A stretch of 34,407 nt of DNA from a virus (taxonomy: Duplodnaviria; Caudoviricetes): positions 1 through 34,407 of the IMG/VR virus record IMGVR_UViG_3300023245_000055. One strand, written 5' to 3'. The translations under genes and the position numbers were made by a program. Positions 487 through 15,947 of the stretch are shown piece after piece (positions within the stretch are counted from its first letter, which is position 1; every line of letters begins with the position of its first letter). The notes under the pieces are model-generated. The model was not told the DNA's origin. It did not search any database and saw only the letters and a program-made list of their open reading frames with translations.

Positions 487-598
487 GTTGAACCCTCTCC
501 CTGGTTAGTCTTTTTAGTAGGTAAAGCCATAGAGCTAGAGCAGCTAAGGCTTCCCAATAATATTGGTAACTGAATACCGCATTAATAAATTCTTCCAT
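479..598 (-). CDS. Small 39-aa membrane peptide
   Basis: MEEFINAVFSYQYYWEALAALALWLYLLKRLTRERVQHG; start coupled to the upstream stop (TAATG) and stop overlaps the next gene. Confidence 0.6.
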   Translation of the reverse strand: MEEFINAVFSYQYYWEALAALALWLYLLKRLTRERVQHG

Positions 599-1371: not shown

Positions 1372-1386
1372 AAAAATTTCCTCCAG

Positions 1387-1423
1387 AAAAATGGAAAGTA
1401 AGGGTGCCCGTGCGAGAGCACCC
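1387..1423 (-). terminator. Putative intrinsic terminator
   Basis: - strand GGGTGCTC-TCGCAC-GGGCACCC followed by TTACTTTCCATTTTT. Confidence 0.5.
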
Positions 1424-1434
1424 CACCTAGAGCG

Positions 1435-1548
1435 TTACATCCCAGCTGCTACGAGCAGCATAAGGAAGCTCCATTGCAAGGCTACAGTAGTAGCCACATC
1501 GTACCCTGAATTAACGAGGGCTTTAATATCTGTCTTAGTTGTGTTCAT
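1435..1548 (-). CDS. Small 37-aa hydrophobic peptide
   Basis: MNTTKTDIKALVNSGYDVATTVALQWSFLMLLVAAGM; ATGA overlap with the upstream stop. Confidence 0.55.
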   Translation of the reverse strand: MNTTKTDIKALVNSGYDVATTVALQWSFLMLLVAAGM

Positions 1549-1730
1549 GCTAGGGCCAGTCCATTACTTGACGTAATGTCCAGGATAGCAATGACTCGAC
1601 CATCATTGAGGGTGATCGAGTCTACTCCAACAACAGCATACGCATCAGCGCTGCCGCCTTCAAACATAGCATCCAGCCATGCGTCTTGAGGGAGCTTCTC
1701 AAGCTCAGTGATTAGATCACTTACTACCAT
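1545..1730 (-). CDS. Hypothetical protein (61 aa)
   Basis: Start moved to ATG 1730 (MVVSDLITELEKLPQDA), which has a GGAGAG RBS; the N-terminus 'V.dLI.eL.k.P.da' is common in small phage proteins. Confidence 0.7.
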   Translation of the reverse strand: MVVSDLITELEKLPQDAWLDAMFEGGSADAYAVVGVDSITLNDGRVIAILDITSSNGLALA

Positions 1731-1756
1731 GCTACTCTCCGGCTGGTGGTTACAAT

Positions 1757-1860
1757 GACAATGCACTGTACTCAGAACCAACCCATACTGCCTACTCCCC
1801 TCAAAGAAGGAAGCGCCCTATGACATCATCATAGGTTGGCCCTGAGTACAATGCACTGTC
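1757..1860 (-). ncRNA. ~30-bp RNA hairpin (RNase III-type site or small RNA)
   Basis: GACAGTGCATTGTACTCAGGGCCAACCTAT pairs with ATGGGTTGGTTCTGAGTACAGTGCATTGTC; the 5 non-Watson-Crick positions are all G:U on the - strand. Confidence 0.7.
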
Positions 1861-1904
1861 GCACTACATAGTACCTAGGCCGTAGGCCAAGCGTTACTAC
1901 ATTG

Positions 1905-2051
1905 TCATAGGTGGCAACGTATTCGCTTGAATAAACCTCGTATGGTGTACTGTCGGCGTATCCACTCTGGAGCTATGCCAACTAATATTACCAACGAGAT
2001 CAAAGCAGCTTGGATGATATGTGCCTGTTGTGCAGGCTCCAATCCAAACAT
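1905..2051 (-). CDS. Small membrane protein (48 aa)
   Basis: AAGGAG RBS before ATG 2051; hydrophobic segment IIQAALISLVILVGIA followed by a basic tail. Confidence 0.6.
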   Translation of the reverse strand: MFGLEPAQQAHIIQAALISLVILVGIAPEWIRRQYTIRGLFKRIRCHL

Positions 2052-2115
2052 AAGCATCTCCTTGTTGTGGTGATTAGACAATTCTTTTTCATCATCGTTC
2101 CACCGGCATCCCGGC

Positions 2116-2170
2116 TGCGCCTCACGTGGTTGGATTCGAACCAACATACTGTCCCATCTTGCACGTGGCG
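2116..2170 (-). ncRNA. tRNA-like minihelix (acceptor-like stem + T-arm, no anticodon arm)
   Basis: CGC-CACGTG, 16-nt GG-containing linker, GTTGG-TTCGAAT-CCAAC (2129-2145), CACGTG-AG-GCG. Confidence 0.5.
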
Positions 2171-2209
2171 GTAAGTACCCTAGTTACGGTAGGGTGTAGC
2201 ACGAGGAAG

Positions 2210-2401
2210 CTACCTACGCGACTCGTGTGTGTCATCAGGTGTCGTCTCAGACTCGGGTAAGGAGGACACTGAACTCTCCTTTCCTGCCCGTTGCCCACTC
2301 ATACACACTCGAACGATGATGTATATACACAAGCCTATTACTAAGCCTGCGAATTCAGTGATGGTGTACTCGTCCATATTAAATCGGGTCTTCGTCGTCA
2401 T
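2210..2401 (-). CDS. Small single-TM protein
   Basis: 63-aa ORF with hydrophobic FAGLVIGLCIYIIVRV. Confidence 0.55.
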   Translation of the reverse strand: MTTKTRFNMDEYTITEFAGLVIGLCIYIIVRVCMSGQRAGKESSVSSLPESETTPDDTHESRR

Positions 2402-2432
2402 GTAATATTATCATGATTGATCCTCCTTCCTA

Positions 2433-2807
2433 CTAGGTAGGGGTAATGTTAAACAAAGGTTTGGGTGGTGTCGGAGGATCCTTATCCTTTTTCTTCTTAC
2501 CTTGCAGTTTAGTATCCTTCTTCAGCCGCACAGGTTCGATGCGGTGGCTCCACTTGTCCCGTCGAGCGGGACCAATTCCATCGCCACGTTCGAGGAGGTA
2601 CTCCTTGATCTTCTTGATCCGTTCCTCCTCTTCCGGTATAGCTGCTGTCAACAGCGATTGCTCCTGTCGAAGCGCAGTCAACCGGTTCTTCAACTTGTTC
2701 AGGTAGTCTTCTTCACTCCGATTGAAGCTCCAAATCCACCAGCGGAGGAGCTTGCGCTTCTCCCGTATTAATAAGCCGCTTGATACGGCTAGACGATATA
2801 GACTCAT
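2433..2807 (-). CDS. Hypothetical basic coiled-coil protein
   Basis: 124 aa, AGGAG RBS, heptad-like centre, Lys/Pro-rich tail. Confidence 0.75.
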   Translation of the reverse strand: MSLYRLAVSSGLLIREKRKLLRWWIWSFNRSEEDYLNKLKNRLTALRQEQSLLTAAIPEEEERIKKIKEYLLERGDGIGPARRDKWSHRIEPVRLKKDTKLQGKKKKDKDPPTPPKPLFNITPT

Positions 2808-2914
2808 AGGTTTCTCCTGTATTGATCGTCAAGTTAATTGATAATTCATGTGCCCCGTACTACGTGTGCAGTACCAATCTAAGGCGGGTTAATATTGCGT
2901 TACTTATACTCTGT

Positions 2915-2972
2915 CAATTACTGTGGGTTCGAACCACGACCGCTTTGCAGGGCAGTCACATCCAAGTAACAG
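2915..2972 (-). ncRNA. D-armless tRNA-like element with a Cys-like (GCA) loop
   Basis: CTGTTACT/AGTAATTG acceptor-like stem; TGGATGT in place of the D-arm; GACTGC-CCTGCAAA-GCGGTC arm; GTGG-TTCGAAC-CCAC T-arm. Confidence 0.5.
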
Positions 2973-3021
2973 TTCTTTATTTGTTCACGGTGGAAGCTGA
3001 TTCTCACCGGCCTGTCCCATA

Positions 3022-3126
3022 ACGATAGGGGTTGGACTCGAACCAACACGGCTTACCAACATGACATGCACAAACTTTGCTCACGCTGTACCACACCTTG
3101 TACTTACCACTAATCATAGGTATCGC
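3022..3126 (-). ncRNA. tRNA-like element (atypical)
   Basis: T-arm GTTGG-TTCGAGT-CCAAC (3031-3047); GCGATA/TATCGT possible acceptor stem; AGTGGTAA D-loop-like segment; no clean anticodon arm. Confidence 0.45.
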
Positions 3127-3352
3127 GCCCGACCTTACGCTATTCACACGCTCGGTTACTAGTTCCAATGGTGTTCTGAATCCTAGTGCTACGGTACGTA
3201 CTCACTATCTCCGCTGCAAACAACCCGCCACAATTTATAGCCAGCTTACCCGTGCCACATGCACATTGTAGATAAGCAAGGGAGGGAAGAAACATTAGCC
3301 TCACCTGGTTGAGAGCCAGTGTACGACACTACCTGTCACCGTGACCCGAACG

Positions 3353-3429
3353 TCATCCGGCAGGGTATTGAACCCTGAGGTTGATAGTAACTTCTCGTTG
3401 TGTTGTGTGTAACTAGGCTACCCAACTGA
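3353..3429 (-). ncRNA. tRNA-like element (atypical)
   Basis: TCAGTTGG/CCGGATGA stem; TAGCCTAGTT D-arm-like start; T-arm CAGGG-TTCAATA-CCCTG (3361-3377). Confidence 0.45.
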
Positions 3430-3430
3430 A

Positions 3431-3508
3431 TAGGTAGGCTGGAATTGAACCAGCGCCCACACCTGTCAGGGTGTGATTGTTCCCACTGTGTGTACAAATT
3501 TCTACTCT
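3431..3508 (-). ncRNA. tRNA-like element (atypical, GAC-containing loop)
   Basis: T-arm GCTGG-TTCAATT-CCAGC (3438-3454); CACACC-CTGACA-GGTGTG arm with a 6-nt loop; AGTGGGA D-loop-like segment; imperfect acceptor stem. Confidence 0.45.
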
Positions 3509-3510
3509 GG

Positions 3511-3845
3511 TACAAGAGCGGTACTCACTAGGCTTGGACACCTTAGTGCATACTCTTTGTCAACGACGACGTGATAACATTCCAGCTATCAGTTATGACT
3601 GCGACAGTCACTATTATTGATTGATCAACCCAGCGCAGGGAGCACTACGTGCTATGCCTGGTGTTATTTACTCATACAGTACGCCAACTACAGTCGGTGC
3701 AGACTGATGTACAATCGCTGCTTGGTACGTACTGGGCTACAGTCGCCGTAGAATTTGTTACGGTCGCTGCAATCCAGAGTTAACTCTCAATCAATCTCAA
3801 TCAATCGAATGTTTCAAACCATAGGTATCTCGAATCAATTGTGGG
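3511..3845 (-). ncRNA. Densely structured ncRNA candidate upstream of the tRNA-like array
   Basis: Long-range ATTGATTGA/TCAATCAAT pairing encloses several hairpins (TTGCAG-CGA-CCGTA/TACGG-CGA-CTGTAG; CAGTACG/CGTACTG); TGACTG/CAGTCA and TGATAGC/GTTATCA hairpins follow; no - strand ORF in the track. Confidence 0.5.
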
Positions 3846-3849
3846 ATGC

Positions 3850-5112
3850 TCAGTATCCGATCCCTGTACGTCGGTACCTCCGGACCAACTCGGCTTGGGG
3901 GATTGTATCGTCACAAGGCACCGCTACCTTGGACCGAGGGCTGATATTGTTTCCCTCGAAGTTATTGACAGCATCCATCAGTTCATATCGTGTACGCTTT
4001 GCAGCGTGACGAACGGTCGGGTTCATGCCGACGAGCTTGCGGCCCTTCTGATAGACATCCCATGTCCAGGCACCAATGGCTGCTATCTGCGATGCTGTTG
4101 TCACAGCAGGCGGTACAGCGAGCTCCTTAGATACCTTCTGCACGTGAGCAAACCCTGGGGTATGCGCCTTCGGTCGAGCTGCTGCTCGATGAATGATAGC
4201 CTTCTTGCGATAGGCCATCTCACCCTGTGTGTAGGGTGCCGAGGTAAGAGGCGGGTCGGCTAACCGTGCGGCTGCTGCTCCCTTCAACTCTATCTCACGT
4301 GCTCGCATCTCCCTTGACCAAGCCTTGAACTGTGTGTTCTCCGACCGTGGGCCACAGTACTCCATGTACTCGAAGCCAGGGATGATCATGCCTCGCTTGC
4401 TCTCGTAACGAGCCAGCTTAACATCAATGCGAGGTTTGTCGTGGTGCTTCATGCACTCTGCTTCCCGTCGGAAGTACTCACGACAGAGGATTTCACTAGC
4501 CTCTACGAGGTCCATCCCGTATGCATCGGCGAGCTGTTCAACTATACCGACATCTTCGTCGGGCATCACAGCAGCTAGTATATCCAAGGTTGCTTCGGGC
4601 ACCATCTCACTGGGAGTGAGCGTGCTTTCTTTCCCGATTCGTGTTGGCTCGTAGTTACTGGCCCTAACGACCTGAGTAACTGGCTTCGGAGCAGGTAAGA
4701 CCTGGACCTCATCTTGCACCTCCGGGAAGGGAAGTTGCTCGGCTTCATTGCCGGGCTGAGATACAGGGACTACCTTACTCTGCTCCTTAGCCTTACGTGC
4801 ATCCGCCATAGGTATCACGTTGCTCTGTACTGCTGGAGCTATCACACTATCGGGGGTTGCGATCACACCTTGACGGTGGAGAACGTGCTGATTTAACTCA
4901 AGCGCATTCAATCGCAGGTTGATGCTGTTTAAGGCATCACTCAGTTTAGTGGTGTCATAGTTAGCGTGGTATAACCCACTCTCTCTATCCCGTACTATCG
5001 CATTACGTGCAGTCGGAGTCCTTACGTCCTCGTGCTTACGCTGTGATTTCTGGTGACGTCCACTGACTGAGGTCTTATGTAAGTCAGTGACTATCATAAG
5101 CTTCTCCTTCAT
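3850..5112 (-). CDS. Hypothetical protein (420 aa)
   Basis: Longest ORF of the left arm; short coiled coil, Pro/Gln-rich linker, basic C-terminal half; no family recognised. Confidence 0.85.
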   Translation of the reverse strand: MKEKLMIVTDLHKTSVSGRHQKSQRKHEDVRTPTARNAIVRDRESGLYHANYDTTKLSDALNSINLRLNALELNQHVLHRQGVIATPDSVIAPAVQSNVIPMADARKAKEQSKVVPVSQPGNEAEQLPFPEVQDEVQVLPAPKPVTQVVRASNYEPTRIGKESTLTPSEMVPEATLDILAAVMPDEDVGIVEQLADAYGMDLVEASEILCREYFRREAECMKHHDKPRIDVKLARYESKRGMIIPGFEYMEYCGPRSENTQFKAWSREMRAREIELKGAAAARLADPPLTSAPYTQGEMAYRKKAIIHRAAARPKAHTPGFAHVQKVSKELAVPPAVTTASQIAAIGAWTWDVYQKGRKLVGMNPTVRHAAKRTRYELMDAVNNFEGNNISPRSKVAVPCDDTIPQAELVRRYRRTGIGY

Positions 5113-5134
5113 TGTGGTTTAAATTAAGCCCGGA

Positions 5135-5146
5135 TAGTCCGGACTA
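5135..5146. promoter_or_regulatory. TAGTCCGGACTA palindrome copy 1
   Basis: Perfect 12-bp palindrome 23 bp upstream of the ATG at 5112. Confidence 0.6.
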
Positions 5147-5322
5147 CTCATCGAACTGACACATTAATCCTTATCGTAACGAGGTGTGTCTCGCATGGTT
5201 ACTGAGCAACCCACCTATCTACAACTACGTTCACCAGAGGCTACCGCAGTTAGGTATCGACAGGCTTGGCATGTTCACACATACATAGCTACCAATGTTA
5301 CAGATCGTGCCACCGACACAGG

Positions 5323-5505
5323 TTACTGTGCCGTATCAGCTACCAGACAAACGCTGGTAGTAGCATCCACGGGGACGCAAGCATCGCCTAAGAAGGCGAC
5401 CAAGTAATCGAGTCCGGCATGAGAGCCGAACACAAGCATCACGACCACGAGCAGTATTACTACATACCGGGGTGCTGATGCGAGCATAGCTGATATTAAA
5501 TTCAT
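5323..5505 (-). CDS. Small membrane/exported protein
   Basis: AAGGAG RBS; hydrophobic YVVILLVVVMLVFG; Cys pair near the C-terminus. Confidence 0.7.
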   Translation of the reverse strand: MNLISAMLASAPRYVVILLVVVMLVFGSHAGLDYLVAFLGDACVPVDATTSVCLVADTAQ

Positions 5506-5534
5506 GCTATTTCTCCTTGGGTTGGTGAGTGTAT

Positions 5535-5618
5535 CTCAATGCACAGGGACGCGGCCCTGTCGGACGCTCACACATTCCAACCTATCACCTTATGTCAAGG
5601 TTGGTACGTCACATTGAG
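5535..5618 (-). ncRNA. Multibranch RNA structure in the leader of 5323..5505
   Basis: CTCAATGT/GCATTGAG closing stem; inner GACGT/GCGTC, CCAACCT/AGGTTGG and ACAGGG/CCCTGT stems. Confidence 0.45.
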
Positions 5619-5720
5619 GTGACATGCTAGAGTCTAGCGCACTGTATCTCGTGCTGCTCTGCATTGATGTACCCAACCGAAGCTGGGCACAGCAATGAAG
5701 ATCAGTCCATTATGTATACC

Positions 5721-6188
5721 CTACAGGGGCGTACTATAGTGCTGATGTTTCAGTTTAGCCCACTGTTCTGTCATGGCACGACAGTCGTAAGCCTCGGCCT
5801 GCTCAAGCCAGCGGCGACCATCTACATGGGCTATCAGGTAACCCTTGAGTACCAGCACCTCAGCGGTGAAGTCGATAGCTCCTAGCTGCTCCACCTCCTC
5901 GGCGAGAGGGTATAGGAATAGCATCAGCCCACTACCACGAGCCTTTAAATCCTCAGCCACTATCGGGGGTATACCCCTCTGGTCCAAAGACATCAGCTGT
6001 TCGTGGAGGATTGAGTACGATGCTACGCAGTACATTCCGGGATACACTGGCGATGTTTCCGGGACGATCAACACGTCGATTAACGGTGGGTGATGAAGCT
6101 CGTCCGCCCGAAGTGGGGGCGCAACGAGGGCACCACAAATAACGATGATGATGACAGCCATTCGTAAGGGAAAGATTAGAGAGAACAT
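5721..6188 (-). CDS. Putative exported protein
   Basis: 155 aa; signal-peptide-like N-terminus ending ...PPLRA; GGAG RBS. Confidence 0.7.
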   Translation of the reverse strand: MFSLIFPLRMAVIIIVICGALVAPPLRADELHHPPLIDVLIVPETSPVYPGMYCVASYSILHEQLMSLDQRGIPPIVAEDLKARGSGLMLFLYPLAEEVEQLGAIDFTAEVLVLKGYLIAHVDGRRWLEQAEAYDCRAMTEQWAKLKHQHYSTPL

Positions 6189-6194
6189 ACATGA

Positions 6195-6413
6195 TTACTC
6201 CTGAGTAATTAAGGGGGTTGGGTTCGGTCCACAATACATCATCCTCATGATGTGCCACGTGGACTCCACTACTACGGAGTGTATGGTGTCTCCATCGTAC
6301 AGGAAGTGATTGGTATCCAGGTATATCTGAGCTGCTAACCAGCACTCGGCTTTGGCTTCGTCCTCTGATAACAAGAATTGTTTCGGCTCCCATGCTTTAA
6401 ATGTATTCACCAC
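6195..6413 (-). CDS. Hypothetical protein (72 aa)
   Basis: GTG start with GGAG RBS; packs tightly against the next gene. Confidence 0.6.
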   Translation of the reverse strand: MVNTFKAWEPKQFLLSEDEAKAECWLAAQIYLDTNHFLYDGDTIHSVVVESTWHIMRMMYCGPNPTPLITQE

Positions 6414-6434
6414 GCCACTCCGTACCGGCTTGAG

Positions 6435-6448
6435 GTAGTCCGGACTAC
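6435..6448. promoter_or_regulatory. GTAGTCCGGACTAC palindrome copy 2
   Basis: Perfect 14-bp palindrome; the 12-bp core starts 23 bp upstream of the start at 6413. Confidence 0.6.
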
Positions 6449-6465
6449 TTGAGTTTAGATTACAG

Positions 6466-6633
6466 TTACCCTACCATGCGAGCCACGGCATCTAAGATAC
6501 CAGCCAGCCCGCCAAAGATAACCACCATCAGCACCAAAGCCGTCCACTCCCCGCCTTTTGGGAAGGGAGTGCGGCTCGGTTTGCGCTGATCTACAACAGG
6601 CCGCTTACGAAGGTCGTCACCTGGGGTGCCCAT
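6466..6633 (-). CDS. Small C-terminally anchored membrane protein (55 aa)
   Basis: MGTPGDDLRKRPVVDQRKPSRTPFPKGGEWTALVLMVVIFGGLAGILDAVARMVG; hand-translated. Confidence 0.5.
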   Translation of the reverse strand: MGTPGDDLRKRPVVDQRKPSRTPFPKGGEWTALVLMVVIFGGLAGILDAVARMVG

Positions 6634-6728
6634 TCGATTACCTTCATTGTTCCGGCCATTGATAGTAAGCCAATGACAGTGCCGATAACGACTCTGCCAA
6701 CGCCACCACTGAATGAACTAAAGAACAT
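6591..6728 (-). CDS. Small membrane peptide (45 aa)
   Basis: MFFSSFSGGVGRVVIGTVIGLLSMAGTMKVIEWAPQVTTFVSGLL; the leader AGGAGAAACCT is identical to that before ATG 2807. Confidence 0.65.
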   Translation of the reverse strand: MFFSSFSGGVGRVVIGTVIGLLSMAGTMKVIEWAPQVTTFVSGLL

Positions 6729-6737
6729 AGGTTTCTC

Positions 6738-6836
6738 CTAAAAGATTGAGTGAAGATAGATAGCACCTACCAGCCCAAAGAGGAATGCTCCCCAAAGGAC
6801 TGGCACGTACCACCATGAACTACGCTGATTGGACAT
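6738..6836 (-). CDS. Small membrane peptide (32 aa)
   Basis: MSNQRSSWWYVPVLWGAFLFGLVGAIYLHSIF with GGAG RBS; the longer track ORF (to 6950) overlaps the upstream gene. Confidence 0.55.
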   Translation of the reverse strand: MSNQRSSWWYVPVLWGAFLFGLVGAIYLHSIF

Positions 6837-7533
6837 GGATGACTCCAGACTGTGGGCGCTGGCCCTGCTCGCTAAGAGCACGCTGTGCATCCTTCGTGAA
6901 CTGCTTGATAAGCCGAGCACGAGGCATCTCAGGTAGCTTGGACAGCGCAACCACTAGGGCACGCATGTCCTCAGGCATCAGGACGTTGGTCTTTGCATCC
7001 AACACCAGACCCTGCTCCAAGGCTTCGGCCATTGTAATTTCCGGGCTAGCATCCCGGTCCTTACGTGGGCCAGCATAACGACGTGTGCTATCACGCTGCT
7101 CCTTGGTGCTCTGAACAGTGACGACCTCATCACTGATCGTGGGTGCTGCCTCATCCTGGTCAGGGACTACAACAACAACTTCCGATTCTTCTGGGGCAGC
7201 AGCCTGCTTGTTGGCCTCACCCTTAGCATTCTTCATGGCATGGTACGACTTGATCCGAGTGAAGTCTAACCCGGCCTTGAAGCCGCCCTTGATATCCGAC
7301 TTGGCTTGGATATACTTACGGGGCAGCTCCTTGATCTTCATCTGTCCTGCTTCATCGGACAAGTAGAAGTCTTCCGCCTCCTCACATCGGCGTATGAATT
7401 CCACCTGATCTTTGCATCGCTTGGCTAGCTTGAACAGGTCACTTGCTGCACCCTGCTGCTTACGTTCAGCTACAATGAATGCACCCAGTACACCCTTGTG
7501 GGTGAGGTGCGCTAATCTACCTTGCTGACTCAT
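6820..7533 (-). CDS. Hypothetical helical protein (237 aa)
   Basis: Start MSQQ at 7533 with GGAGGT RBS and ATGA coupling to the upstream gene. Confidence 0.8.
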   Translation of the reverse strand: MSQQGRLAHLTHKGVLGAFIVAERKQQGAASDLFKLAKRCKDQVEFIRRCEEAEDFYLSDEAGQMKIKELPRKYIQAKSDIKGGFKAGLDFTRIKSYHAMKNAKGEANKQAAAPEESEVVVVVPDQDEAAPTISDEVVTVQSTKEQRDSTRRYAGPRKDRDASPEITMAEALEQGLVLDAKTNVLMPEDMRALVVALSKLPEMPRARLIKQFTKDAQRALSEQGQRPQSGVIHVQSA

Positions 7534-7712
7534 GGTGTTACCTCCTCTTTGCATATGTAACCAGCTACCCGTGCTCCACCATACCAACCGGACTCAACGT
7601 AGCCCTCACCGGTCTGCTCACACGTGGTCATGCTGCTGTCAGGTACTACGTGTACCTGCTGTTCGATGATACCTGTACTGGTGTACAGTATCAGTAGTAA
7701 TGTCACGATCAT
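7530..7712 (-). CDS. Small exported protein (60 aa)
   Basis: Hydrophobic N-terminus, two Cys, AGGAG RBS. Confidence 0.65.
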   Translation of the reverse strand: MIVTLLLILYTSTGIIEQQVHVVPDSSMTTCEQTGEGYVESGWYGGARVAGYICKEEVTP

Positions 7713-7721
7713 ATCATTCTC

Positions 7722-7931
7722 CTAGTTGTTGGATACTACCGCTACCTCCTCGATAGTGGGCAGTAGTGCGCTCTCATCTTGGGCAGTAGTCCGGACTACC
7801 CAACGTGTTTTCACAGTTCTCCTACCTATCCGAGCATACGGACGGCAGTCATGGTATCTCACCTGGTAGAATTCGTAGTACTCATCCCACCTACAGGCAT
7901 CAAGTAGACACCCATGCAATTGGGTCTTCAC
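7722..7931 (-). CDS. Hypothetical protein
   Basis: In-frame GTG at 7931 behind GGAGG; contains palindrome copy 3. Confidence 0.45.
   Translation of the reverse strand: MKTQLHGCLLDACRWDEYYEFYQVRYHDCRPYARIGRRTVKTRWVVRTTAQDESALLPTIEEVAVVSNN
7786..7799. promoter_or_regulatory. GTAGTCCGGACTAC palindrome copy 3
   Basis: Perfect 14-bp palindrome. Confidence 0.55.
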
Positions 7932-7948
7932 TGTCCCTTTCCTCCGTA

Positions 7949-8092
7949 TCAGTGGAGCAATTGGAGTATCCAAACTCCTGCCCCTGCTACACTAAACAGT
8001 ATGCTCATTGGCAACACTGTCACTATACCTATCATCACTAGTGGCCCTGTCACCAGGTCTACCAGCTCTCGCATTACCTCTACCACTGGCAT
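7949..8092 (-). CDS. Small membrane peptide (47 aa)
   Basis: MPVVEVMRELVDLVTGPLVMIGIVTVLPMSILFSVAGAGVWILQLLH; AGGAG just upstream. Confidence 0.5.
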   Translation of the reverse strand: MPVVEVMRELVDLVTGPLVMIGIVTVLPMSILFSVAGAGVWILQLLH

Positions 8093-8339
8093 CTCTCCTA
8101 TTCACAACCAACAGGGCCAGTATCCCTGTCAGTATCATCACTGCCTCTATCATAAACCCTCACTCTGGTACTGCTACGAGCAAGAGGTATGGTGTGCTGC
8201 CTGTCATCAGTCTAACTAGTATCTCTTCCTGACACAGCTTGGGTGCCTCCCTCTCGGGTCACTCGCACACCATTCCTTTCCTGGCCTGCCATTACACAGG
8301 CACTCACATGATACGCCTCCACTTACAGTAGAATAGTAC

Positions 8340-8553
8340 ACGGTTAGACTGTCCCTTTCCCAAGGGCAAGATGAGTACACAAGGTTGCTAGGGTTTCTGC
8401 CTATACCTAGCCTCGGCTCACGCGGTTTGGAATTTCTCCCTGTTCCACGGCATATCGCCTACCCTGTACCAGCATCTAGTCTAGCATGTTGAGCTTCAGG
8501 CATAGGGTCCCTAGCTCGCCGCACCGTCAGAAACTGGCGCACAGTCTAACCGT
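8340..8553 (-). ncRNA. ~215-nt nested-stem ncRNA candidate
   Basis: 13-bp perfect terminal IR (8340-8352/8541-8553) with nested GCTAGGG/CCCTAGC, TGCCT/AGGCA and GCTCA/TGAGC stems. Confidence 0.6.
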
Positions 8554-8582
8554 CTACCATCCCTAATGTGTAGGCATGGTTC

Positions 8583-8710
8583 GCGTATCTCTACGCTATG
8601 GTCGGCACGGACTGCCCCTGTACCTCTTTGCTAGACACCCGATAAGGTGCAGTACCTGTGTACAGTAGGGCAGCCCGCCCCGTCTATGTGGGTAGTGTTA
8701 GTCCTACCCT
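8583..8710 (-). ncRNA. Structured RNA candidate
   Basis: GCGGGCTGCCC-TA-CTGTAC/GTACAG-GGGCAGTCCGT 17-bp bulged stem with G:U pairs, flanked by GCGTA-GAGA-TACGC and GGGTAG/CTACCC hairpins. Confidence 0.55.
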
Positions 8711-8730
8711 AGCTCTCGCTTTGTCACTCT

Positions 8731-8916
8731 CTAGTAGTCGCCTACATTCAGTGATACCTTAAGTTGCGTACCATTGGGCAGCAATAAGGTCTGGAATCCC
8801 TTGCTAGTCGCCAGCATGGACATTTTCTTGCCCTCTTTTGGCGGACGCATGGGCAGTGTCGTGTCAATGATCAGATGTAACTTACCATCTACAATCTTTA
8901 CCTCTACGTTATCCAT
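8731..8916 (-). CDS. Small beta-rich hypothetical protein (61 aa)
   Basis: MDNVEVKIVDGKLHLIID...GK...LATSKG pattern that I recall from small phage/bacterial hypotheticals; AAGGAG RBS. Confidence 0.75.
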   Translation of the reverse strand: MDNVEVKIVDGKLHLIIDTTLPMRPPKEGKKMSMLATSKGFQTLLLPNGTQLKVSLNVGDY

Positions 8917-8972
8917 TCGGATACTCCTTCAGTTGGTTATGGTCACCACCCCTATCTCAAGGGACAGTCTAC

Positions 8973-9000
8973 ACTACACTATCCTTTCGGATAATGTAGT
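8973..9000 (-). other. 12-bp hairpin with GAAA tetraloop overlapping palindrome copy 4
   Basis: ACTACATTATCC-GAAA-GGATAGTGTAGT; no U-tract. Confidence 0.55.
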
Positions 9001-9008
9001 CCGGACTA
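8997..9008. promoter_or_regulatory. TAGTCCGGACTA palindrome copy 4
   Basis: Perfect, intergenic. Confidence 0.6.
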
Positions 9009-9019
9009 TGCCTTTACAG

Positions 9020-9451
9020 TCAAGCTATTTCCCTAACTCTATCTATCTCAGCTCTCGCAACACGCACAGCATAGCGGGATTCGCATCCACTAGACAATGG
9101 TTTACCACTATCTGCAGCAAGGTACTCATACCCTGGTAGGAATACAAACATTCCTCTCCTAGCATGAGTTCGTGCGCTTGCCATAGTACTAGCATCGCTA
9201 GACTTGGCAGCCTTCACATACCCTTGCTGCATAGCCCTGGGTGCATTGAGAGGCAACGGTTTACGCGTGTACCATAAGTCCCATCCTAGGTCATAGTCGG
9301 ATAGCATCCGATTCCCTACCTTGTATGGTCTCGAACGGTTCACGCGTGCAGGTCTTCCCTTAGCCACGTTGAACCCTCTCTCAGACTCAGTTAGTCCCGT
9401 CCTGGGGATGTCAAGACACTTGTCCATTAGTGTCCCGGCTCTTGTTGTCAA
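9020..9451 (-). CDS. Hypothetical basic protein (start uncertain)
   Basis: 143-aa ORF; alternative ATG at 9427. Confidence 0.6.
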   Translation of the reverse strand: MTTRAGTLMDKCLDIPRTGLTESERGFNVAKGRPARVNRSRPYKVGNRMLSDYDLGWDLWYTRKPLPLNAPRAMQQGYVKAAKSSDASTMASARTHARRGMFVFLPGYEYLAADSGKPLSSGCESRYAVRVARAEIDRVREIA

Positions 9452-9465
9452 GAGGCTTGCTCATG

Positions 9466-9477
9466 TAGTCCGGACTA
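9466..9477. promoter_or_regulatory. TAGTCCGGACTA palindrome copy 5
   Basis: Perfect, intergenic. Confidence 0.6.
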
Positions 9478-9510
9478 TCCCGGACCACATTGACAAGTAT
9501 CCTGTTCACT

Positions 9511-9711
9511 CTAAGCGTGTCGCTCTACCGCAAACGTGGCATTAGCAGACAATTCTAGCCCTTGTTCTTGAGCAAAAGCCTCAAGCTCAGTCCTAGTAAG
9601 CTGATGAGTCGGGCCATTGAGCTTACGCCCGGGCTTAGACTTCCACCAGTTATACTGTCGCTCTTGATCCACATCATACGAGGCTCCACCCCGTGCTTTA
9701 TGTACACGCAT
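9511..9711 (-). CDS. Hypothetical protein (66 aa), probable first gene of the left arm
   Basis: GGGGAG RBS; lies downstream of the sigma54 promoter. Confidence 0.7.
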   Translation of the reverse strand: MRVHKARGGASYDVDQERQYNWWKSKPGRKLNGPTHQLTRTELEAFAQEQGLELSANATFAVERHA

Positions 9712-9739
9712 GGTGTCACTCCCTATAAGTTAGAAGAAG

Positions 9740-9751
9740 TAGTCCGGACTA
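9740..9751. promoter_or_regulatory. TAGTCCGGACTA palindrome copy 6
   Basis: Perfect; 29 bp upstream of ATG 9711 and just downstream of a - strand TATACT hexamer. Confidence 0.6.
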
Positions 9752-9973
9752 ACAATCGCGCAAGTATAACCCGCTCACTGTTAGTGTGTAGCTTTATACT
9801 GACTACATGCGGCAATGCTATAGACCGAGTGTACGACGACACCCTCAGTATGTACTATCCACGTCGAGACTAGGCGCATTACAACGTAACTAGTCCGAAC
9901 TGTTAACCTGTCAAGCGCAATGCTTGCGAGGGCCACCAACTGCCTCAAAGGCTTGCCGGGGCAAGATATATAA

Positions 9974-9990
9974 TGCAGACTGCGTGCCAA
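9974..9990 (-). promoter_or_regulatory. sigma54 (-24/-12) promoter, leftward
   Basis: TTGGCACGCAGTCTGCA with exact GG-N10-GC spacing. Confidence 0.75.
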
Positions 9991-10005
9991 CTTTGCCAAA
10001 AACTG

Positions 10006-10018
10006 TAAGTCATTGATT
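10006..10018 (-). promoter_or_regulatory. IHF binding site
   Basis: AATCAATGACTTA matches WATCAANNNNTTR, about -43 to -55 from the sigma54 start. Confidence 0.75.
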
Positions 10019-10044
10019 TATAAGGGTTTTTCCCGTTTGTAGAC

Positions 10045-10061
10045 TTGGCATGATACTTGCT
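10045..10061 (+). promoter_or_regulatory. sigma54-type site, rightward
   Basis: TTGGCATGATACTTGCT with GG-N10-GC spacing. Confidence 0.6.
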
Positions 10062-10067
10062 TGGATG

Positions 10068-10132
10068 GTCACAATGTGACGCAATAGGTCACTTTTATGA
10101 CAATTATGGTCAGAGGGTGACGTAAATTGTCA
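10068..10132. promoter_or_regulatory. Three phased TGAC-N7-GTCA repeats (putative enhancer-binding-protein sites)
   Basis: TGAC at 10077, 10098 and 10118, each followed 7 nt later by GTCA; extra GTCA half-site at 10068. Confidence 0.6.
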
Positions 10133-10280
10133 GTCGAGGCTGTAGGATACGGTATAAAGGCTAGTTTAATCAGGTAATATGATTGTAAAGGGTTGGCATA
10201 AAACGGGCTCAAACGAGCTTATATGGCGTCTCACGGCATGTATTGCTGGCAATGCGACCCGGTAAGTCTACCAGGTAACA

Positions 10281-10318
10281 TACTGTATGGATGTACAGTA
10301 CTGTATAAGTGTACAGTG
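10281..10318. promoter_or_regulatory. Tandem LexA (SOS) boxes 1-2
   Basis: TACTGTATGGATGTACAGTA (10281-10300) and TACTGTATAAGTGTACAGTG (10299-10318), both CTGT-N8-ACAG. Confidence 0.85.
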
Positions 10319-10332
10319 TTCCACGTGAAACA
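10317..10332. promoter_or_regulatory. parS: parS site 1
   Basis: TGTTCCACGTGAAACA matches the chromosomal parS consensus TGTTNCACGTGAAACA. Confidence 0.85.
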
Positions 10333-10366
10333 ACGTAACCAGGATGATAGACAAGATACTTGCATA

Positions 10367-10382
10367 TGTTCCACGTGAAACA
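10367..10382. promoter_or_regulatory. parS: parS site 2
   Basis: Identical 16-mer, 50 bp from the first. Confidence 0.85.
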
Positions 10383-10391
10383 GTCCGGACT
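10382..10391. promoter_or_regulatory. AGTCCGGACT palindrome core (copy 7)
   Basis: Fills the gap between parS 2 and LexA box 3. Confidence 0.55.
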
Positions 10392-10428
10392 ACTGTATAA
10401 ACGTACAGTACTGGGTATTTGTACAGTA
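10391..10428. promoter_or_regulatory. Tandem LexA (SOS) boxes 3-4
   Basis: TACTGTATAAACGTACAGTA (10391-10410) and TACTGGGTATTTGTACAGTA (10409-10428). Confidence 0.8.
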
Positions 10429-10446
10429 TAGGGGTGCAATGGTCAA

Positions 10447-10528
10447 GTAGCTTGACTATCTAAGCAACCCGCGGGCCCATGCAAGAAACGTGCCAGGATT
10501 CTGTCAAGAAAGCTGATAGTCAAGCTAC
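10447..10528. repeat. 14-bp perfect inverted repeat
   Basis: GTAGCTTGACTATC (10447-10460) and GATAGTCAAGCTAC (10515-10528). Confidence 0.75.
10480..10496 (-). promoter_or_regulatory. sigma54 consensus site, leftward
   Basis: CTGGCACGTTTCTTGCA, a perfect TGGCACG-N4-TTGCA. Confidence 0.7.
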
Positions 10529-10751
10529 CTGCCTACCTACCCCAAGGAGGGGTGCCCGGGCCTACATGACCTTCTATTGACTCCATCCATATTTCTCCAG
10601 CAAATTATTTTCTTAGGGAATGTTCGATTTATTCCTCTCTCCTCCATATATATTTTCTAGAAATTTCTTAATCGTGGCTCTCTTAGTTTTATACAGATTA
10701 GAGATTTCTAATCTTAATTAGAGATTTAAATCTTTGATTTAACATCTCAGG

Positions 10752-10778
10752 GAACTTTTTGCGATTTCTGGTGTCTAA
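10752..10778 (+). promoter_or_regulatory. sigmaE/AlgU-type (ECF) promoter
   Basis: GAACTT-N16-TCTAA facing the virion genes. Confidence 0.7.
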
Positions 10779-10922
10779 CTATACATTATTTATAAAAGTT
10801 CTTAAGATCATTGATAGATCGTAAGATAGTAAGTGAATTGAATAGATAGAAAGTATCAATTCTATTAATCTTATATTAGCTATAGTAATATAGTATTAGC
10901 ACATGAATTAGTAGAGGTCTCA

Positions 10923-11084
10923 ATGGGATTGGAACCAAACTTTCAAAACTGGTTAACACATACAGATCAACTTGAAGAATGGGCGAAGCAACTTATATTT
11001 GTTGCCGGATCTATGTATCAACAAGATCTAGAGCAAGCCAAGATAGTGTTAGACGAGTATTACTCGGCAACACCAAACAACTAG
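10923..11084 (+). CDS. Hypothetical protein (53 aa)
   Basis: MGLEPNFQNWLTHTDQLEEWAKQLIFVAG...; GAGG RBS; ends 9 bp before the next ATG. Confidence 0.6.
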   Translation: MGLEPNFQNWLTHTDQLEEWAKQLIFVAGSMYQQDLEQAKIVLDEYYSATPNN

Positions 11085-11093
11085 AAGAGCATT

Positions 11094-11990
11094 ATGGGAA
11101 CAACCTTTAATCCAACCGCTGTAGGCACGGGCTTCCGAGATACAGACAGATGGGACGTTATACTCGCAGAGATAGCGCAAGAGCTAGAAAATAAGGTAGA
11201 TCGTAACGGGGTATCCCCGAACGCGATGGCTGCCGACCTGGACATGGGTGATAACAACCTATTGAATGTCCTAGAGGGTGTTAACGGATCTGATGGTGTG
11301 AACCTCAGCCAAGTCACCAACCTAGCTACTGCTATCGCTACTACTATCGCTGGCACCGTCAGTGGTTCAGGTGGTACCGGTGCAGACCCGATTACTATCA
11401 ACTACGGTACTCTGATAGGCTCTCAAGGCTCTACCAACCGTACAGTGTTTAATCTTACTACTCTCTTGGGTGTAGTCAGCTATAGTGGTATCACAGTTAT
11501 AGTGAACGGGGTAGTACAAGTCCCGGGGCAATCATACAGCTCCAGTGGTACTACCTTAACCTTCACAGAGTCTCTCCTTCCTGGTTCAGATATCTTTCTG
11601 ATCTATGGGGATCTCAGCCCTACTCCTACCACTAGTCTTACAGTTAACAACTACGATCTCGGGGTGTTCGTATCGGGTACGCCATCTAACTCCCAGGAAA
11701 TCCTGAGGTTCGTAGCTCCCCGAGCTATATACTATGCTGATGACTTCGCTAACTCTAGATTAGATGCAGATACAGCAGCTACAGGTTCTTCCGTCTTTAC
11801 AGTTAAAGATGAGGGAGTATCAATCGGTACGATCACAGTTGCAGCAGCCGGTACTACAGGTACCTTCGCTACTACAGCTACAGACCATACTGTAAATATT
11901 GGTGATGTCCTGAGCATTGAGGCTCCGTCTACCGCGGATGCCACACTAGCTGATATCAGTATTACGTTATTTGGTTCACGGGCCTCGTAG
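11094..11990 (+). CDS. Tail fibre-like virion protein
   Basis: N-terminal NKVDRNGVSPNAMAADLDMGDNNLLN fibre motif; VNGVVQ.P...Y..SGTTLTF module; Thr/Gly-rich. Confidence 0.7.
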   Translation: MGTTFNPTAVGTGFRDTDRWDVILAEIAQELENKVDRNGVSPNAMAADLDMGDNNLLNVLEGVNGSDGVNLSQVTNLATAIATTIAGTVSGSGGTGADPITINYGTLIGSQGSTNRTVFNLTTLLGVVSYSGITVIVNGVVQVPGQSYSSSGTTLTFTESLLPGSDIFLIYGDLSPTPTTSLTVNNYDLGVFVSGTPSNSQEILRFVAPRAIYYADDFANSRLDADTAATGSSVFTVKDEGVSIGTITVAAAGTTGTFATTATDHTVNIGDVLSIEAPSTADATLADISITLFGSRAS

Positions 11991-13822: not shown

Positions 13823-14404
13823 ATGGATCGTGAAGATTACATGATGTATATCGGGTTCTCTGATCCTTACCAGGACCGCGCTGTCCTAAAGGATGTGATG
13901 GGTCGATACCGTACTAACATCTTCTACGAGTTCAACAAATCCCGACACGAGGACTACCCGCCTCTCTATACCATGCGTGAAGACGAATGGAGAGGCCTGC
14001 CAAGCGCTTACCGGATCTTTATGGAATCGGAGAGCGAGTACGAGGCAGCAATGAAGCTAGTGGGTTCATGGGGCCACTGGCAAAAACTACTCAAGTGTAA
14101 ACCTTTCATGGATGGAAGTGACGAGAGTGCTCTCTGGAACGGGCTGAAGTTCTGGAGAAACGAGAAGCTGGTTCAAGACCAAGCTCTCGCGTACAATCAG
14201 TTAAAGATTAGTGCAGCTCAGGGAAACGTGACTGCACAGAAGATCATCCTAGAGGGTGACAAGAAGACCTCCAAGAGAGGCAGACCTAGTGATGCGGAAG
14301 TTAAGAAGGCCGCAGCTGCCCAGGCAGAGAAGAGCACTCAGGTTAAGAATGACCTAGCACGTATTAAGGATTTAGATGTCAAGCGATTTGCAACCAGTAA
14401 TTGA
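13823..14404 (+). CDS. Putative terminase small subunit
   Basis: Overlaps the start of TerL; helical; basic KRGRPS C-terminus. Mainly a positional call. Confidence 0.55.
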   Translation: MDREDYMMYIGFSDPYQDRAVLKDVMGRYRTNIFYEFNKSRHEDYPPLYTMREDEWRGLPSAYRIFMESESEYEAAMKLVGSWGHWQKLLKCKPFMDGSDESALWNGLKFWRNEKLVQDQALAYNQLKISAAQGNVTAQKIILEGDKKTSKRGRPSDAEVKKAAAAQAEKSTQVKNDLARIKDLDVKRFATSN

Positions 14405-15947
14405 TCTCTGCGAGAACAGTTTCTTTGCATTCATGCGCCTGGTTAATCCTCAGTACGCATACGGAGACATACATGCAGAACTTTGTAAATGGATTCAAGA
14501 TGGTGATTCGCAGCGTAAGCTTGCGCTTCTCCCCCGTGGGCATCTTAAGTCTCACATTGCTGCTGGCTATGCTGCTTGGCGTATCACTTATCGCCCCTGG
14601 ATAAGTATCGTATATCTCTCAGCTGGTGAAGACTTGGCTAAAGACCAGATCTACGCCATCAAGAATATGATGACGAATGACGTATACCGCACTTACTGGC
14701 CGGAGATGTTTAAAGAAGATGAAGGACAAAGAGAACAGTGGAGCGCCTTTAGCTTCAATGTGGACCACCCTGATCGCAAGAGGCGGGGTATTAGAGATCA
14801 TACGATCATCGTTAAGACGGTTAAGAGTAACGCCATCGGACTACATTGCGATCTGCTTATTGCTGATGATGTTGTTATTCCTGACTTTGCTGATTCCGCT
14901 GTGGGTCGTAGTGAAGTTAATCGACGGATGGCGCAGTTTGTTTCCATCCTCAACCCGAGAGGAGAAATCCTAGCGGTAGGTACTAGGTACCATCCAAGCG
15001 ACTTGTACCAATCCTTTATCGAGTCTGTGTATCAGATTTGGGAAGCAGCTCTTAAGGAGTTCAAAGGTGAGGCCAAGCTTTGGGATATCTTCAGCCGTGA
15101 GGTTGAAAGCGAAGGTGACGGGACTGGTGAGTTCCTGTGGCCTTTAACAGTTGATGAAGATACGGGCGAGACCTACGGGTTCGATGCTCAAACTCTAGCC
15201 ATCATACGAGCAGACTATGAGTCGAAGGGTCAGCTGGTACAGTTCTTCTGCCAGTACTACAACAACCCTAACGCGATTGATATGCAACGGATTTCACGTG
15301 GACACTTCCAGTACTACGACCGTAAGCACATCAAGGTAGAGGGCAAGGATGTCTTCTACCGTACGAACAAGCTGAATACATTTGCAGCGATGGACGTAGC
15401 GTGGACAGACAATGCAGGATCTGACTTCACCGCAATAGCCGTTATCGGCATGGACAGTGATGAGAACGTCTACTTGTTAGACCTCACGCAGTTCAAGACA
15501 GCTAACTTCAATGATTACTATAATGAAGTTATGGGACTACACCGCAAGTGGCAGTTCCGAAAGCTGGTAGTAGAGACTAATGCTGGTGGTCAGTTCGTTA
15601 AGAATGAACTAGACCGCATGGTAAGACAGAACGGAGAAGTTCTGACAATCGAAGGGAAGCCAGCCATAACTAGGCAGGGTTCTAAAAACGAACGTAAGGG
15701 AGCTACCCTAGAGTGGAGATACGCTGACCAGCGAATCTGGCATTTCAAAGGTGGGTTGATAGCAGAGTTCGAGGACCAGATAGTCCTTGACAGACCTAAG
15801 CATGATGACTTATCAGATGCTTTTGTTTCAGCTGTAGTCAGCGCTAAGGCCCCTGGCAAGAGAGCATACGCATCAAACGTAAGAGTTATGGATATAAACA
15901 CCACATACAATAGCCGCTTCGGTGGACGCAGGAGCAGAGTAGCATGA
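14376..15947 (+). CDS. terL: Terminase large subunit
   Basis: Walker A-like LLPRGHLKS, Walker B LLIADD, GTRY, QYYNNP; nuclease motifs AMDVA, DFTA, VETN, HDDLSDA. Confidence 0.95.
   Translation: MSSDLQPVIDLCENSFFAFMRLVNPQYAYGDIHAELCKWIQDGDSQRKLALLPRGHLKSHIAAGYAAWRITYRPWISIVYLSAGEDLAKDQIYAIKNMMTNDVYRTYWPEMFKEDEGQREQWSAFSFNVDHPDRKRRGIRDHTIIVKTVKSNAIGLHCDLLIADDVVIPDFADSAVGRSEVNRRMAQFVSILNPRGEILAVGTRYHPSDLYQSFIESVYQIWEAALKEFKGEAKLWDIFSREVESEGDGTGEFLWPLTVDEDTGETYGFDAQTLAIIRADYESKGQLVQFFCQYYNNPNAIDMQRISRGHFQYYDRKHIKVEGKDVFYRTNKLNTFAAMDVAWTDNAGSDFTAIAVIGMDSDENVYLLDLTQFKTANFNDYYNEVMGLHRKWQFRKLVVETNAGGQFVKNELDRMVRQNGEVLTIEGKPAITRQGSKNERKGATLEWRYADQRIWHFKGGLIAEFEDQIVLDRPKHDDLSDAFVSAVVSAKAPGKRAYASNVRVMDINTTYNSRFGGRRSRVA

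What the first reader, a model, noticed from the sequence alone, without database searches (positions are those of the whole stretch)
10281..10428. LexA-LexA-parS-parS-operator-LexA-LexA cassette: possible host-run carrier-state switch
Seen: 148 bp hold four SOS boxes in two pairs with the same 18-bp offset, bracketing two identical parS 16-mers and one core of the phage's own palindrome; most sites abut or overlap. Known: Bacillus phi29 carries parS sites used by host Spo0J, and GIL01 and CTXphi use host LexA. I know of no proteobacterial podovirus combining both. Inference: the phage may persist as an unintegrated episome segregated by host ParB and kept quiet by host LexA until SOS. Alternatively the cassette is a decoy or docking pad on the first-injected DNA. 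No integrase, repressor or parAB gene is visible in this window.
Basis: partly seen in the sequence, partly recalled or inferred. Interest (0 to 1): 0.92.

Follow-up and report, generated by a model that had tools for sequence, protein, structure and literature searches.

The report
LexA-fenced host centromere at phage end
An uncultured salt-lake phage carries, in the non-coding gap predicted to be its genome end, two perfect copies of the bacterial centromere word with a pair of DNA-damage-repressor words on each side, which likely let host proteins dock on the phage DNA end during an ordinary lytic infection rather than run a carrier state.

Summary
The cassette is real and not chimeric. It holds four SOS boxes (one 20/20 identical to the E. 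coli sulA operator) and two perfect parS, all far above chance. It lies in the early/late gap of a Zobellviridae-like podovirus, at the position of a relative's terminal repeat. All three strict sigma-54 boxes of the window lie in the same gap. No integrase, S24 repressor, ParA or ParB was found in about 47 kb of the genome.

No parS was found in the Zobellviridae records or gaps tested; their gap carries other host words (sigma-54, Fur-like, DnaA, single SOS). A strong SOS box next to parS recurs in 5 unrelated viral clusters (under 0.1 expected) and in 0 of 9 bacterial matches.

Best reading: a host-protein docking block used in the lytic cycle, with LexA pairs fencing ParB clamps near a free DNA end (0.4). 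Rivals: titration sponge, SOS-gated deferment, stable episome (0.1). This scan has already noted parS, SOS and sigma-54 arrays in other phages' terminal repeats; none of the notes returned described LexA bracketing parS. No binding is shown.

The parts
10281..10300 (.). SOS box 1 (20/20 identical to the E. coli sulA operator)
10299..10318 (.). SOS box 2; overlaps parS1 by 2 bp
10317..10332 (.). parS 1, perfect chromosomal-type 16-mer
10348..10364 (+). degenerate sigma-54-like word in the 34-bp spacer between the two parS (76% to the box at 10045)
   Evidence: family D3; reading inferred
10367..10382 (.). parS 2, identical to parS 1
10382..10391 (.). AGTCCGGACT palindrome core, overlapping parS2 and SOS3 by 1 bp each; six more copies lie in the early arm, mostly just upstream of early ORFs; binder unknown
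10391..10410 (.). SOS box 3
10409..10428 (.). SOS box 4 (CTGG half-site)
9974..9989 (-). sigma-54 -24/-12 box facing the early genes; candidate main early promoter
10006..10018 (-). IHF consensus just upstream of that sigma-54 box (the count of IHF words is not above chance; only the position is notable)
10046..10061 (+). sigma-54 box facing the cassette
10068..10132 (.). phased GTCA/TGAC half-sites, three TGAC-N7-GTCA palindromes at 20-21 bp period; candidate enhancer-protein sites
   Evidence: role inferred
10444..10531 (.). 17-nt inverted repeat (10444-10460 / 10515-10531) centred exactly on the sigma-54 box at 10480-10495 (-)
   Evidence: (I12)
10544..10606 (+). G-rich plus TTTCT..AAATT landmark shared with Zobellviridae; places the predicted inner edge of the terminal repeat near 10500
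10727..10739 (-). second IHF consensus
9555..9719 (-). candidate first early ORF (54 aa, no family)
11094..11990 (+). first large late ORF, tail-fibre-like
14376..15947 (+). terminase large subunit, 40-43% to ICP2, CW02, PA11 and Klyazma

Best explanation
The 148-bp cassette is the core of a roughly 800-bp non-coding block of host-protein binding words in the predicted terminal repeat of a likely lytic Zobellviridae-like podovirus, where host ParB would load at the two parS sites and the LexA pairs on both sides would likely act as fences that keep the sliding ParB clamps from running off the nearby DNA end. Shown: the words, their geometry, their position in the early/late gap, no phage par, integrase or repressor gene detected in about 47 kb, and recurrence of SOS next to parS in unrelated phages. 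Inferred, step by step: (1) the gap is the terminal repeat; (2) LexA and ParB bind soon after DNA entry; (3) a direct repeat has its free end on the left in one copy and on the right in the other, so a fence on both sides holds ParB at both ends; (4) the small LexA-ParB cap ties the incoming DNA to the host ParA/SMC and nucleoid, where host RNA polymerase is, or shields the end; (5) SOS cleavage of LexA, or a protein binding the palindrome wedged between parS2 and SOS3, opens the fence.
For: Words far above chance. Position matches the 711-bp terminal repeat of Klyazma through a shared landmark. In Zobellviridae this gap carries different host words in different members: six sigma-54-like boxes in both orientations beside the 138-bp repeat of VpV262, Fur-like and DnaA words in T5S1, Fur-like and IHF in T4S1, single SOS cores in Klyazma and 1.264.O. 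That suggests occupancy matters more than one signal. A strong SOS box (4 or fewer mismatches) within 30 bp of parS occurs in 10 of 14 viral loci, 5 of 9 clusters including this phage, against 0.02-0.10 expected. In one cluster parS and the SOS box are kept across 5 members down to about 72% nucleotide identity while their spacing changes, and 3 of the 5 have a Fur-like palindrome on the far side of parS. In vitro, ParB-CTP fails to accumulate on DNA with an open end, and a bound repressor partly restores it (PMC7053999, section read). Only 1 of 14 other tandem-SOS clusters has a sigma-70-like promoter under the boxes.
Against: No binding, host or lifestyle data. The genome end is inferred from synteny. 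Most family repeats are 74-138 bp, which would leave only half of the cassette inside the repeat; the assembly hint is weak (one unitig at depth 16.9 against 11.2 and 11.6). No closer relative could be checked, because their contigs stop short of the gap. 0 of 8 Zobellviridae records searched whole have a perfect parS. In L249, L251 and L257 the SOS boxes lie on one side of parS only. Adjacency may only reflect crowding into the sole non-coding gap: the chance figure assumes a uniform background. Fenced into about 70 bp, only a few clamps would fit, perhaps too few to engage ParA. ParB can bypass roadblocks (PMC9242446, search listing only). The promoter scan missed its sulA control.
Confidence: 0.4

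Rival explanations
1. Titration sponge. Once the genome is replicated to many copies (the repeat doubles the dose), the boxes soak up host LexA, ParB and sigma-54. This would switch on SOS genes (division block, recombination) and stall chromosome segregation, helping the lytic burst; the geometry is just tight packing.
For: Strong operators, one identical to the sulA operator; several copies; no promoter found under them; sigma-54 boxes in both orientations here and in VpV262; host words interchangeable between relatives. Titration of repressors by multicopy operators is recalled knowledge; one search listed no direct paper.
Against: Does not need the symmetric bracket or the 1-2 bp overlaps. 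It acts only after replication, which leaves little time if the latent period is short (unknown here).
Confidence: 0.22
2. SOS-gated lytic deferment by transcription control. LexA blocks a cryptic or sigma-54 transcript that enters the cassette (box at 10480 facing left), and ParB holds the paused DNA for a short time, in the manner of phi29 (Spo0A plus Spo0J) and the CtrA phages.
For: The published cases of host words on lytic phages are regulatory (PMC2731898, PMC9437464, passages). In the L248 cluster the SOS box sits directly behind a sigma-54 box, over its predicted start. Two Vibrio phages have a single SOS box on a 12/12 sigma-70 promoter. A weak leftward TTGACC-17-TACAAA lies under box 4 (read from the sequence).
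Against: No consensus sigma-70 promoter between 10000 and 10777. The nearest SOS box is about 40 bp downstream of the predicted sigma-54 start, and the likely early promoter at 9974 is 300 bp away.
Confidence: 0.2
3. Stable carrier state: an unintegrated episome segregated by host ParAB and silenced by LexA until SOS.
For: All required host words are present together. The absence of phage par and repressor genes is what a fully host-run switch would predict. phi29 uses host Spo0J for segregation.
Against: T7-like primase/helicase, PolA, exonuclease and endonuclease I, with no plasmid-type rep seen. No close terminase relative in 185,579 genomes (finds close relatives only). No LexA-covered promoter was found. 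LexA fences would block the ParB spreading that partition needs. The characterised relative read here, Klyazma, is lytic with no integrase.
Confidence: 0.1
4. The words are bound by phage proteins (packaging or replication), or are a captured host fragment or assembly chimera.
For: Phage ends are rich in repeats; palindrome density is raised in this gap.
Against: 20/20 identity to the sulA operator and two 16/16 parS. Contiguity in independent assemblies. SOS core next to parS gave 9 matches in all GTDB genomes, none proteobacterial by title and none with a strong box.
Confidence: 0.05

Closest known systems
Bacillus phage phi29 parS sites and Spo0A boxes (PMC2731898, passages)
   Same: A lytic phage with no ParB of its own carries host chromosomal parS together with sites for a second host regulator.
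   Different: phi29 has five dispersed parS and Spo0A boxes at promoters and is trapped in spores. Here two parS are bracketed by LexA pairs within 148 bp, no promoter overlap was found, and the host is probably a gamma- or betaproteobacterium.
T5 injection-stop region DnaA-box pairs (10.1101/866236, abstract and passages)
   Same: Paired host-protein boxes in the non-coding part of a lytic phage's terminal repeat, proposed to act by docking.
   Different: DnaA rather than LexA and ParB (the text has 0 mentions of LexA); two-step injection is not shown here.
CtrA-site clusters and lytic deferment in alphaproteobacterial phages (PMC9437464, passages)
   Same: Host regulator sites concentrated in terminal repeats or intergenic gaps.
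   Different: CtrA sites there regulate phage promoters; no parS is mentioned (0 occurrences).
LexA-controlled temperate phages such as GIL01 (search listings and passage in PMC9437464; CTXphi recalled)
   Same: Host LexA operators on a phage genome.
   Different: Those boxes cover promoters of lytic or antirepressor genes in phages with a dormant state; neither feature was found here.
Zobellviridae terminal gaps (Klyazma, VpV262, PA11, ICP2, CW02)
   Same: Same genome layout, terminase family and post-repeat landmark; host-type words in the same gap in several members.
   Different: None tested has parS or an SOS array; terminase identity is only 40-43%.

Membership tests
Gamma/betaproteobacterial LexA operator | CTGT-N8-ACAG with AT-rich flanks, above chance | tested here: met
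   3 of 4 boxes have the full core, the fourth CTGG; 0 of 100 shuffles; box 1 equals the site upstream of E. coli sulA
Gamma/betaproteobacterial LexA operator | Overlaps the promoter it represses | tested here: inconclusive
   No sigma-70-like site under the boxes, but the same script missed the sulA control
Gamma/betaproteobacterial LexA operator | Binds LexA | not testable with these tools
   needs EMSA or ChIP
Chromosomal-type parS | 16-bp palindrome TGTTYCACGTGRAACA | tested here: met
   2 perfect copies, 0.02 expected; consensus recalled
Chromosomal-type parS | Loads ParB and supports partition | not testable with these tools
   no host, no assay
Phage-plasmid or temperate phage with its own maintenance genes | Integrase, S24 repressor, ParA or ParB gene | tested here: not met
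   0 of 2 records for PF00589, PF02195, PF00717 and PF13614 with working controls; a gap inside the last tail ORF is unseen
Phage-plasmid or temperate phage with its own maintenance genes | Found inside bacterial genome assemblies | tested here: inconclusive
   0 of 62 candidate stretches encode a terminase relative; close relatives only, and the host may be unsequenced
phi29-type host-ParB hitch-hiking | Host parS without phage ParB, plus sites for a second host regulator | tested here: met
phi29-type host-ParB hitch-hiking | Second regulator represses phage promoters and the DNA is segregated into a dormant cell | not testable with these tools
   no promoter overlap found; no infection data
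Zobellviridae | Terminase and virion module related to members; divergent early/late arms | tested here: met
   best named TerL hits ICP2, CW02, PA11, Klyazma at 40-43%; same gene order as ICP2
Zobellviridae | Direct terminal repeat in the early/late gap | tested here: inconclusive
   landmark synteny puts an edge near 10500; only contigs, no raw reads
Zobellviridae | Placement inside the family by genome-wide phylogeny | not tested
   no tree built; PolA gave no hit to ICP2 at 1e-10, so I say Zobellviridae-like

The most novel reading that the evidence does not exclude
An SOS-gated centromere built only from host parts. LexA pairs confine host ParB to a few clamps on the phage end; DNA damage removes LexA, ParB spreads, silences the early promoter and hands the phage DNA to the host segregation machine. 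A phage with no repressor, integrase or par gene could then pause and be inherited in damaged cells. The SOS-next-to-parS pairing appears in at least five unrelated viral clusters.
Probability: 0.12. Interest if true: 0.85.

Novelty: new variant of a known kind. Interest (0 to 1): 0.56.

Why it matters
The ends of lytic phage genomes appear to carry interchangeable docking words for host proteins (LexA, ParB, sigma-54, Fur, DnaA). I found no functional test of this for LexA or ParB in proteobacterial phages in the searches listed. This cassette is the most compact and symmetric example I found, so it can be tested as a 150-bp fragment with purified LexA, ParB and CTP, or on a plasmid, without culturing the phage. 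A positive result would show a repressor used as a physical fence for a sliding clamp, coupling DNA-damage sensing to DNA positioning. It would also blur the lytic/temperate labels that are assigned from gene content alone.

Tried and rejected
Host-fragment or chimera reading: rejected. L173 has the window's length and 100% identity and was not counted as independent; X1 may be the source.

G001 as the complete rest of the genome: its last 6.2 kb (L193 3001-9247) continue in other contigs into a different virion module with no nucleotide match to the window, so I treat it as a misjoin in a shared tail-fibre motif and dropped those ORFs.

Conservation in close relatives: contigs at 62-86% terminase identity end before the gap. 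Near-complete relatives seem to exist (P0003 on 48.9 kb, P0018 on 49.5 kb) but could not be fetched. blastn of 9000-11200 against named phages: no match.

Random viral parS loci: 0 of 128 had an SOS box within 300 bp, so the pairing is rare. Fur words are not enriched near parS in that sample; sigma-54 words are (7 in 57 kb near, 2 in 192 kb far; not dereplicated, intergenic bias not controlled). No Fur, DnaA, CRP or matS word in this phage's gap.

Physical ends: no molecule-end signal from contigs. No RNA holder listed. Atlas search of ORF 9020-9451: no usable hit. Host not identified.

Literature: ten searches listed no paper on LexA boxes beside parS in a phage; the library covers open-access papers only. 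No structure or complex prediction was run.

Full report
OBSERVATION. Between 10281 and 10428 lie SOS boxes at 10281, 10299, 10391 and 10409, identical parS 16-mers at 10317 and 10367, and an AGTCCGGACT core at 10382. These are the only parS-like words in the window up to 4 mismatches. Shuffles give 0.02 expected parS matches against 2 seen and 0.19 SOS matches against 7 strand-matches at 4 sites; none of 100 shuffles reached either count. Box 1 matches the E. coli K-12 chromosome at one place, 20 of 20, just upstream of sulA. The two SOS pairs are a 37-nt direct repeat at 81% identity; reading the two copies, all CTG and CAG triplets are kept and 5 of the 7 differences fall in the central spacers. 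The consensus motifs used as patterns are recalled, not taken from a call.

NOT AN ARTEFACT. The cassette is identical in L006, L007 and L174. L173 is probably the source record and is not counted. Of 8 runs laid, X1 (possibly the source) and X6 span it in one piece, X9 joins it to the early arm and X5 to the late arm; the other four are fragmented. All 24 listed holder runs are labelled salt lake metagenome. An SOS core within 30 bp of parS gave only 9 matches in GTDB genomes, none proteobacterial by title and none with 4 or fewer mismatches to the LexA consensus, so this is not a copied piece of a host origin.

THE PHAGE. The late arm has a terminase 40-43% identical to ICP2, CW02, PA11 and Klyazma, and the ICP2 gene order. 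A contig of the same phage (G001, 99.7% over window 1-10241) adds primase/helicase, PolA, exonuclease and endonuclease I. Its last 6.2 kb belong to another phage. Window plus the valid part of G001 is about 46.7 kb, close to the 47 kb implied by the 73% completeness given for the window; the unseen part probably lies within the last tail ORF. Integrase, ParB, S24 peptidase and ParA families gave 0 of 2 records, with controls positive. No RNA polymerase family appeared among the ORFs scanned; Klyazma also lacks one. No close terminase relative was found in prokaryote genomes (0 of 62 candidates).

POSITION. The cassette lies in the 1.2-kb gap between leftward early and rightward late genes. In Klyazma this gap holds a 711-bp terminal repeat that ends 96 bp before a TTTCT..AAATT landmark; the landmark is at 10592 here and aligns across 6 sequences, which predicts an inner repeat edge near 10500. 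The repeat length is unknown: most family members have 74-138 bp. One unitig covering 10116-10470 has depth 16.9 against 11.2 and 11.6 on its flanks, and contig breaks gather near 10.05-10.24 and 10.44-10.60 kb, but strain variants also break contigs, so this is weak.

A LARGER BLOCK. All three strict sigma-54 boxes of the window lie in this gap (9974 -, 10046 +, 10480 -; 0.08 expected). So do both IHF words (2 seen, 1.4 expected, so only the position counts) and three phased TGAC-N7-GTCA palindromes. The order sigma-54, IHF, palindromes at 9974-10132 looks like an enhancer-dependent promoter for the early genes (inference from established sigma-54 promoter anatomy). The palindrome in the cassette recurs six times in the early arm, mostly just upstream of ORFs; its binder is unknown.

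RELATIVES. No closer relative could be read across the gap. Among annotated Zobellviridae records, 0 of 8 searched whole have a perfect parS or a strong SOS box, 0 of 10 gaps have parS, and 2 of 14 have one SOS core in the gap. Others carry different host-type words there: six sigma-54-like boxes in both orientations beside the VpV262 repeat, Fur-like and DnaA words in T5S1, Fur-like and IHF in T4S1, a sigma-54-like box in PA11; CW02 and VP41s3 showed none.

UNRELATED PHAGES. Named phages picked by similarity to the cassette (so a selected set) show SOS arrays with the 18-bp offset near a record end (Aer_P220, J2-1), SOS boxes in the CBB repeat, and parS in the phiPsa315 repeat; J2-1 also has three perfect parS elsewhere. 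In IMG/VR the tandem 18-bp SOS pair occurs in 44 loci, 15 clusters, and of the clusters inspected only this phage's has parS nearby. An SOS core within 30 bp of parS occurs in 14 loci, 9 clusters; 10 loci in 5 clusters have a strong box against 0.02-0.10 expected from about 9,500 parS-bearing stretches. Two of the four other clusters sit just upstream of a terminase gene, and 0 of 5 records tested encode an integrase or ParB (fragments). Against over-reading: the expectation assumes a uniform background, 0 of 128 random parS loci had an SOS box within 300 bp, and three clusters have boxes on one side only.

MECHANISM. ParB-CTP clamps slide off an open DNA end, and a bound repressor partly restores their accumulation (PMC7053999, section 7 read). 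A parS near a linear end therefore needs a fence, and in a direct repeat the free end is on opposite sides in the two copies, which would explain a fence on both sides. I commit to this at 0.4: host LexA and ParB form a cap on the genome end in the lytic cycle, tying it to the host nucleoid machinery or shielding it, and SOS or the palindrome-binding protein opens it. Every step after the sequence anatomy is inferred. Titration of LexA, ParB and sigma-54 by replicated genomes (0.22) explains the same words without needing the geometry. Transcriptional deferment (0.2) has the best precedent (phi29, PMC2731898; CtrA phages, PMC9437464; passages) but no promoter was found under the boxes here or in 13 of 14 other tandem clusters (the sulA control was missed, so this is weak). 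A stable episome (0.1) is not excluded but has no positive support beyond the words themselves.

NOVELTY. Host words on lytic phage genomes are known: parS and Spo0A boxes in phi29, DnaA boxes in the T5 repeat (10.1101/866236, abstract and passages), CtrA sites. This scan has already noted parS, SOS, DnaA and sigma-54 words in other phages' repeats; a query for LexA flanking parS returned nothing. Ten literature searches listed no paper on LexA boxes beside parS in a phage. No supplements were read. Verdict: a real new variant of a known kind, cheap to test, function unproven; interest 0.56.

Noticed in passing
window 9974-10132: Sigma-54 box, IHF word and three phased TGAC-N7-GTCA palindromes in the order of an enhancer-dependent promoter facing the early genes; the activator is unknown.
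   Followed up: partly
window 10444-10531: A 17-nt inverted repeat is centred exactly on the sigma-54 box at 10480-10495, near the predicted repeat edge.
   Followed up: no
window 5135-10392: TAGTCCGGACTA-type palindrome, 7 copies, confined to the early arm and the cassette, mostly 20-50 bp upstream of early ORFs; none in the first 10 kb of the replication arm scanned.
   Followed up: partly
L264 173-346 (VpV262): Six sigma-54-like boxes in both orientations directly inside the 138-bp terminal repeat boundary, followed by TGGTC-N2-ACC-type palindromes around 405-485.
   Followed up: partly
L248, L250, L252, L258, L259 around parS: A podovirus group with a block of DnaA boxes, sigma-54 box, SOS box, parS and Fur-like palindrome upstream of its terminase genes; parS and SOS are kept to about 72% nucleotide identity.
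   Followed up: partly
L152 2503 and L155 1481 (Vibrio phages Ph19S9E2, Phriendly): A single SOS box overlaps a perfect 12/12 sigma-70 promoter; in Phriendly it lies just upstream of a tRNA-Gly gene and the terminase/lysis genes. Possible direct LexA control in these phages.
   Followed up: no
G001 (L193 about 3000): Public viral contig is probably misjoined to another phage's virion module inside a shared tail-fibre motif.
   Followed up: yes
L202-L245: Tandem SOS boxes at exactly 18-bp offset recur in 15 viral clusters, mostly with no sigma-70-like promoter beneath them.
   Followed up: partly
MF988720 (Pseudoalteromonas phage J2-1): A cultured phage with a tandem SOS pair at 575-612 and three perfect parS at 34943, 78100 and 78133: a possible experimental model.
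   Followed up: no
window 10600-10920: AT-rich stretch between the landmark and the first late ORF, with an IHF word; candidate origin or packaging region.
   Followed up: no
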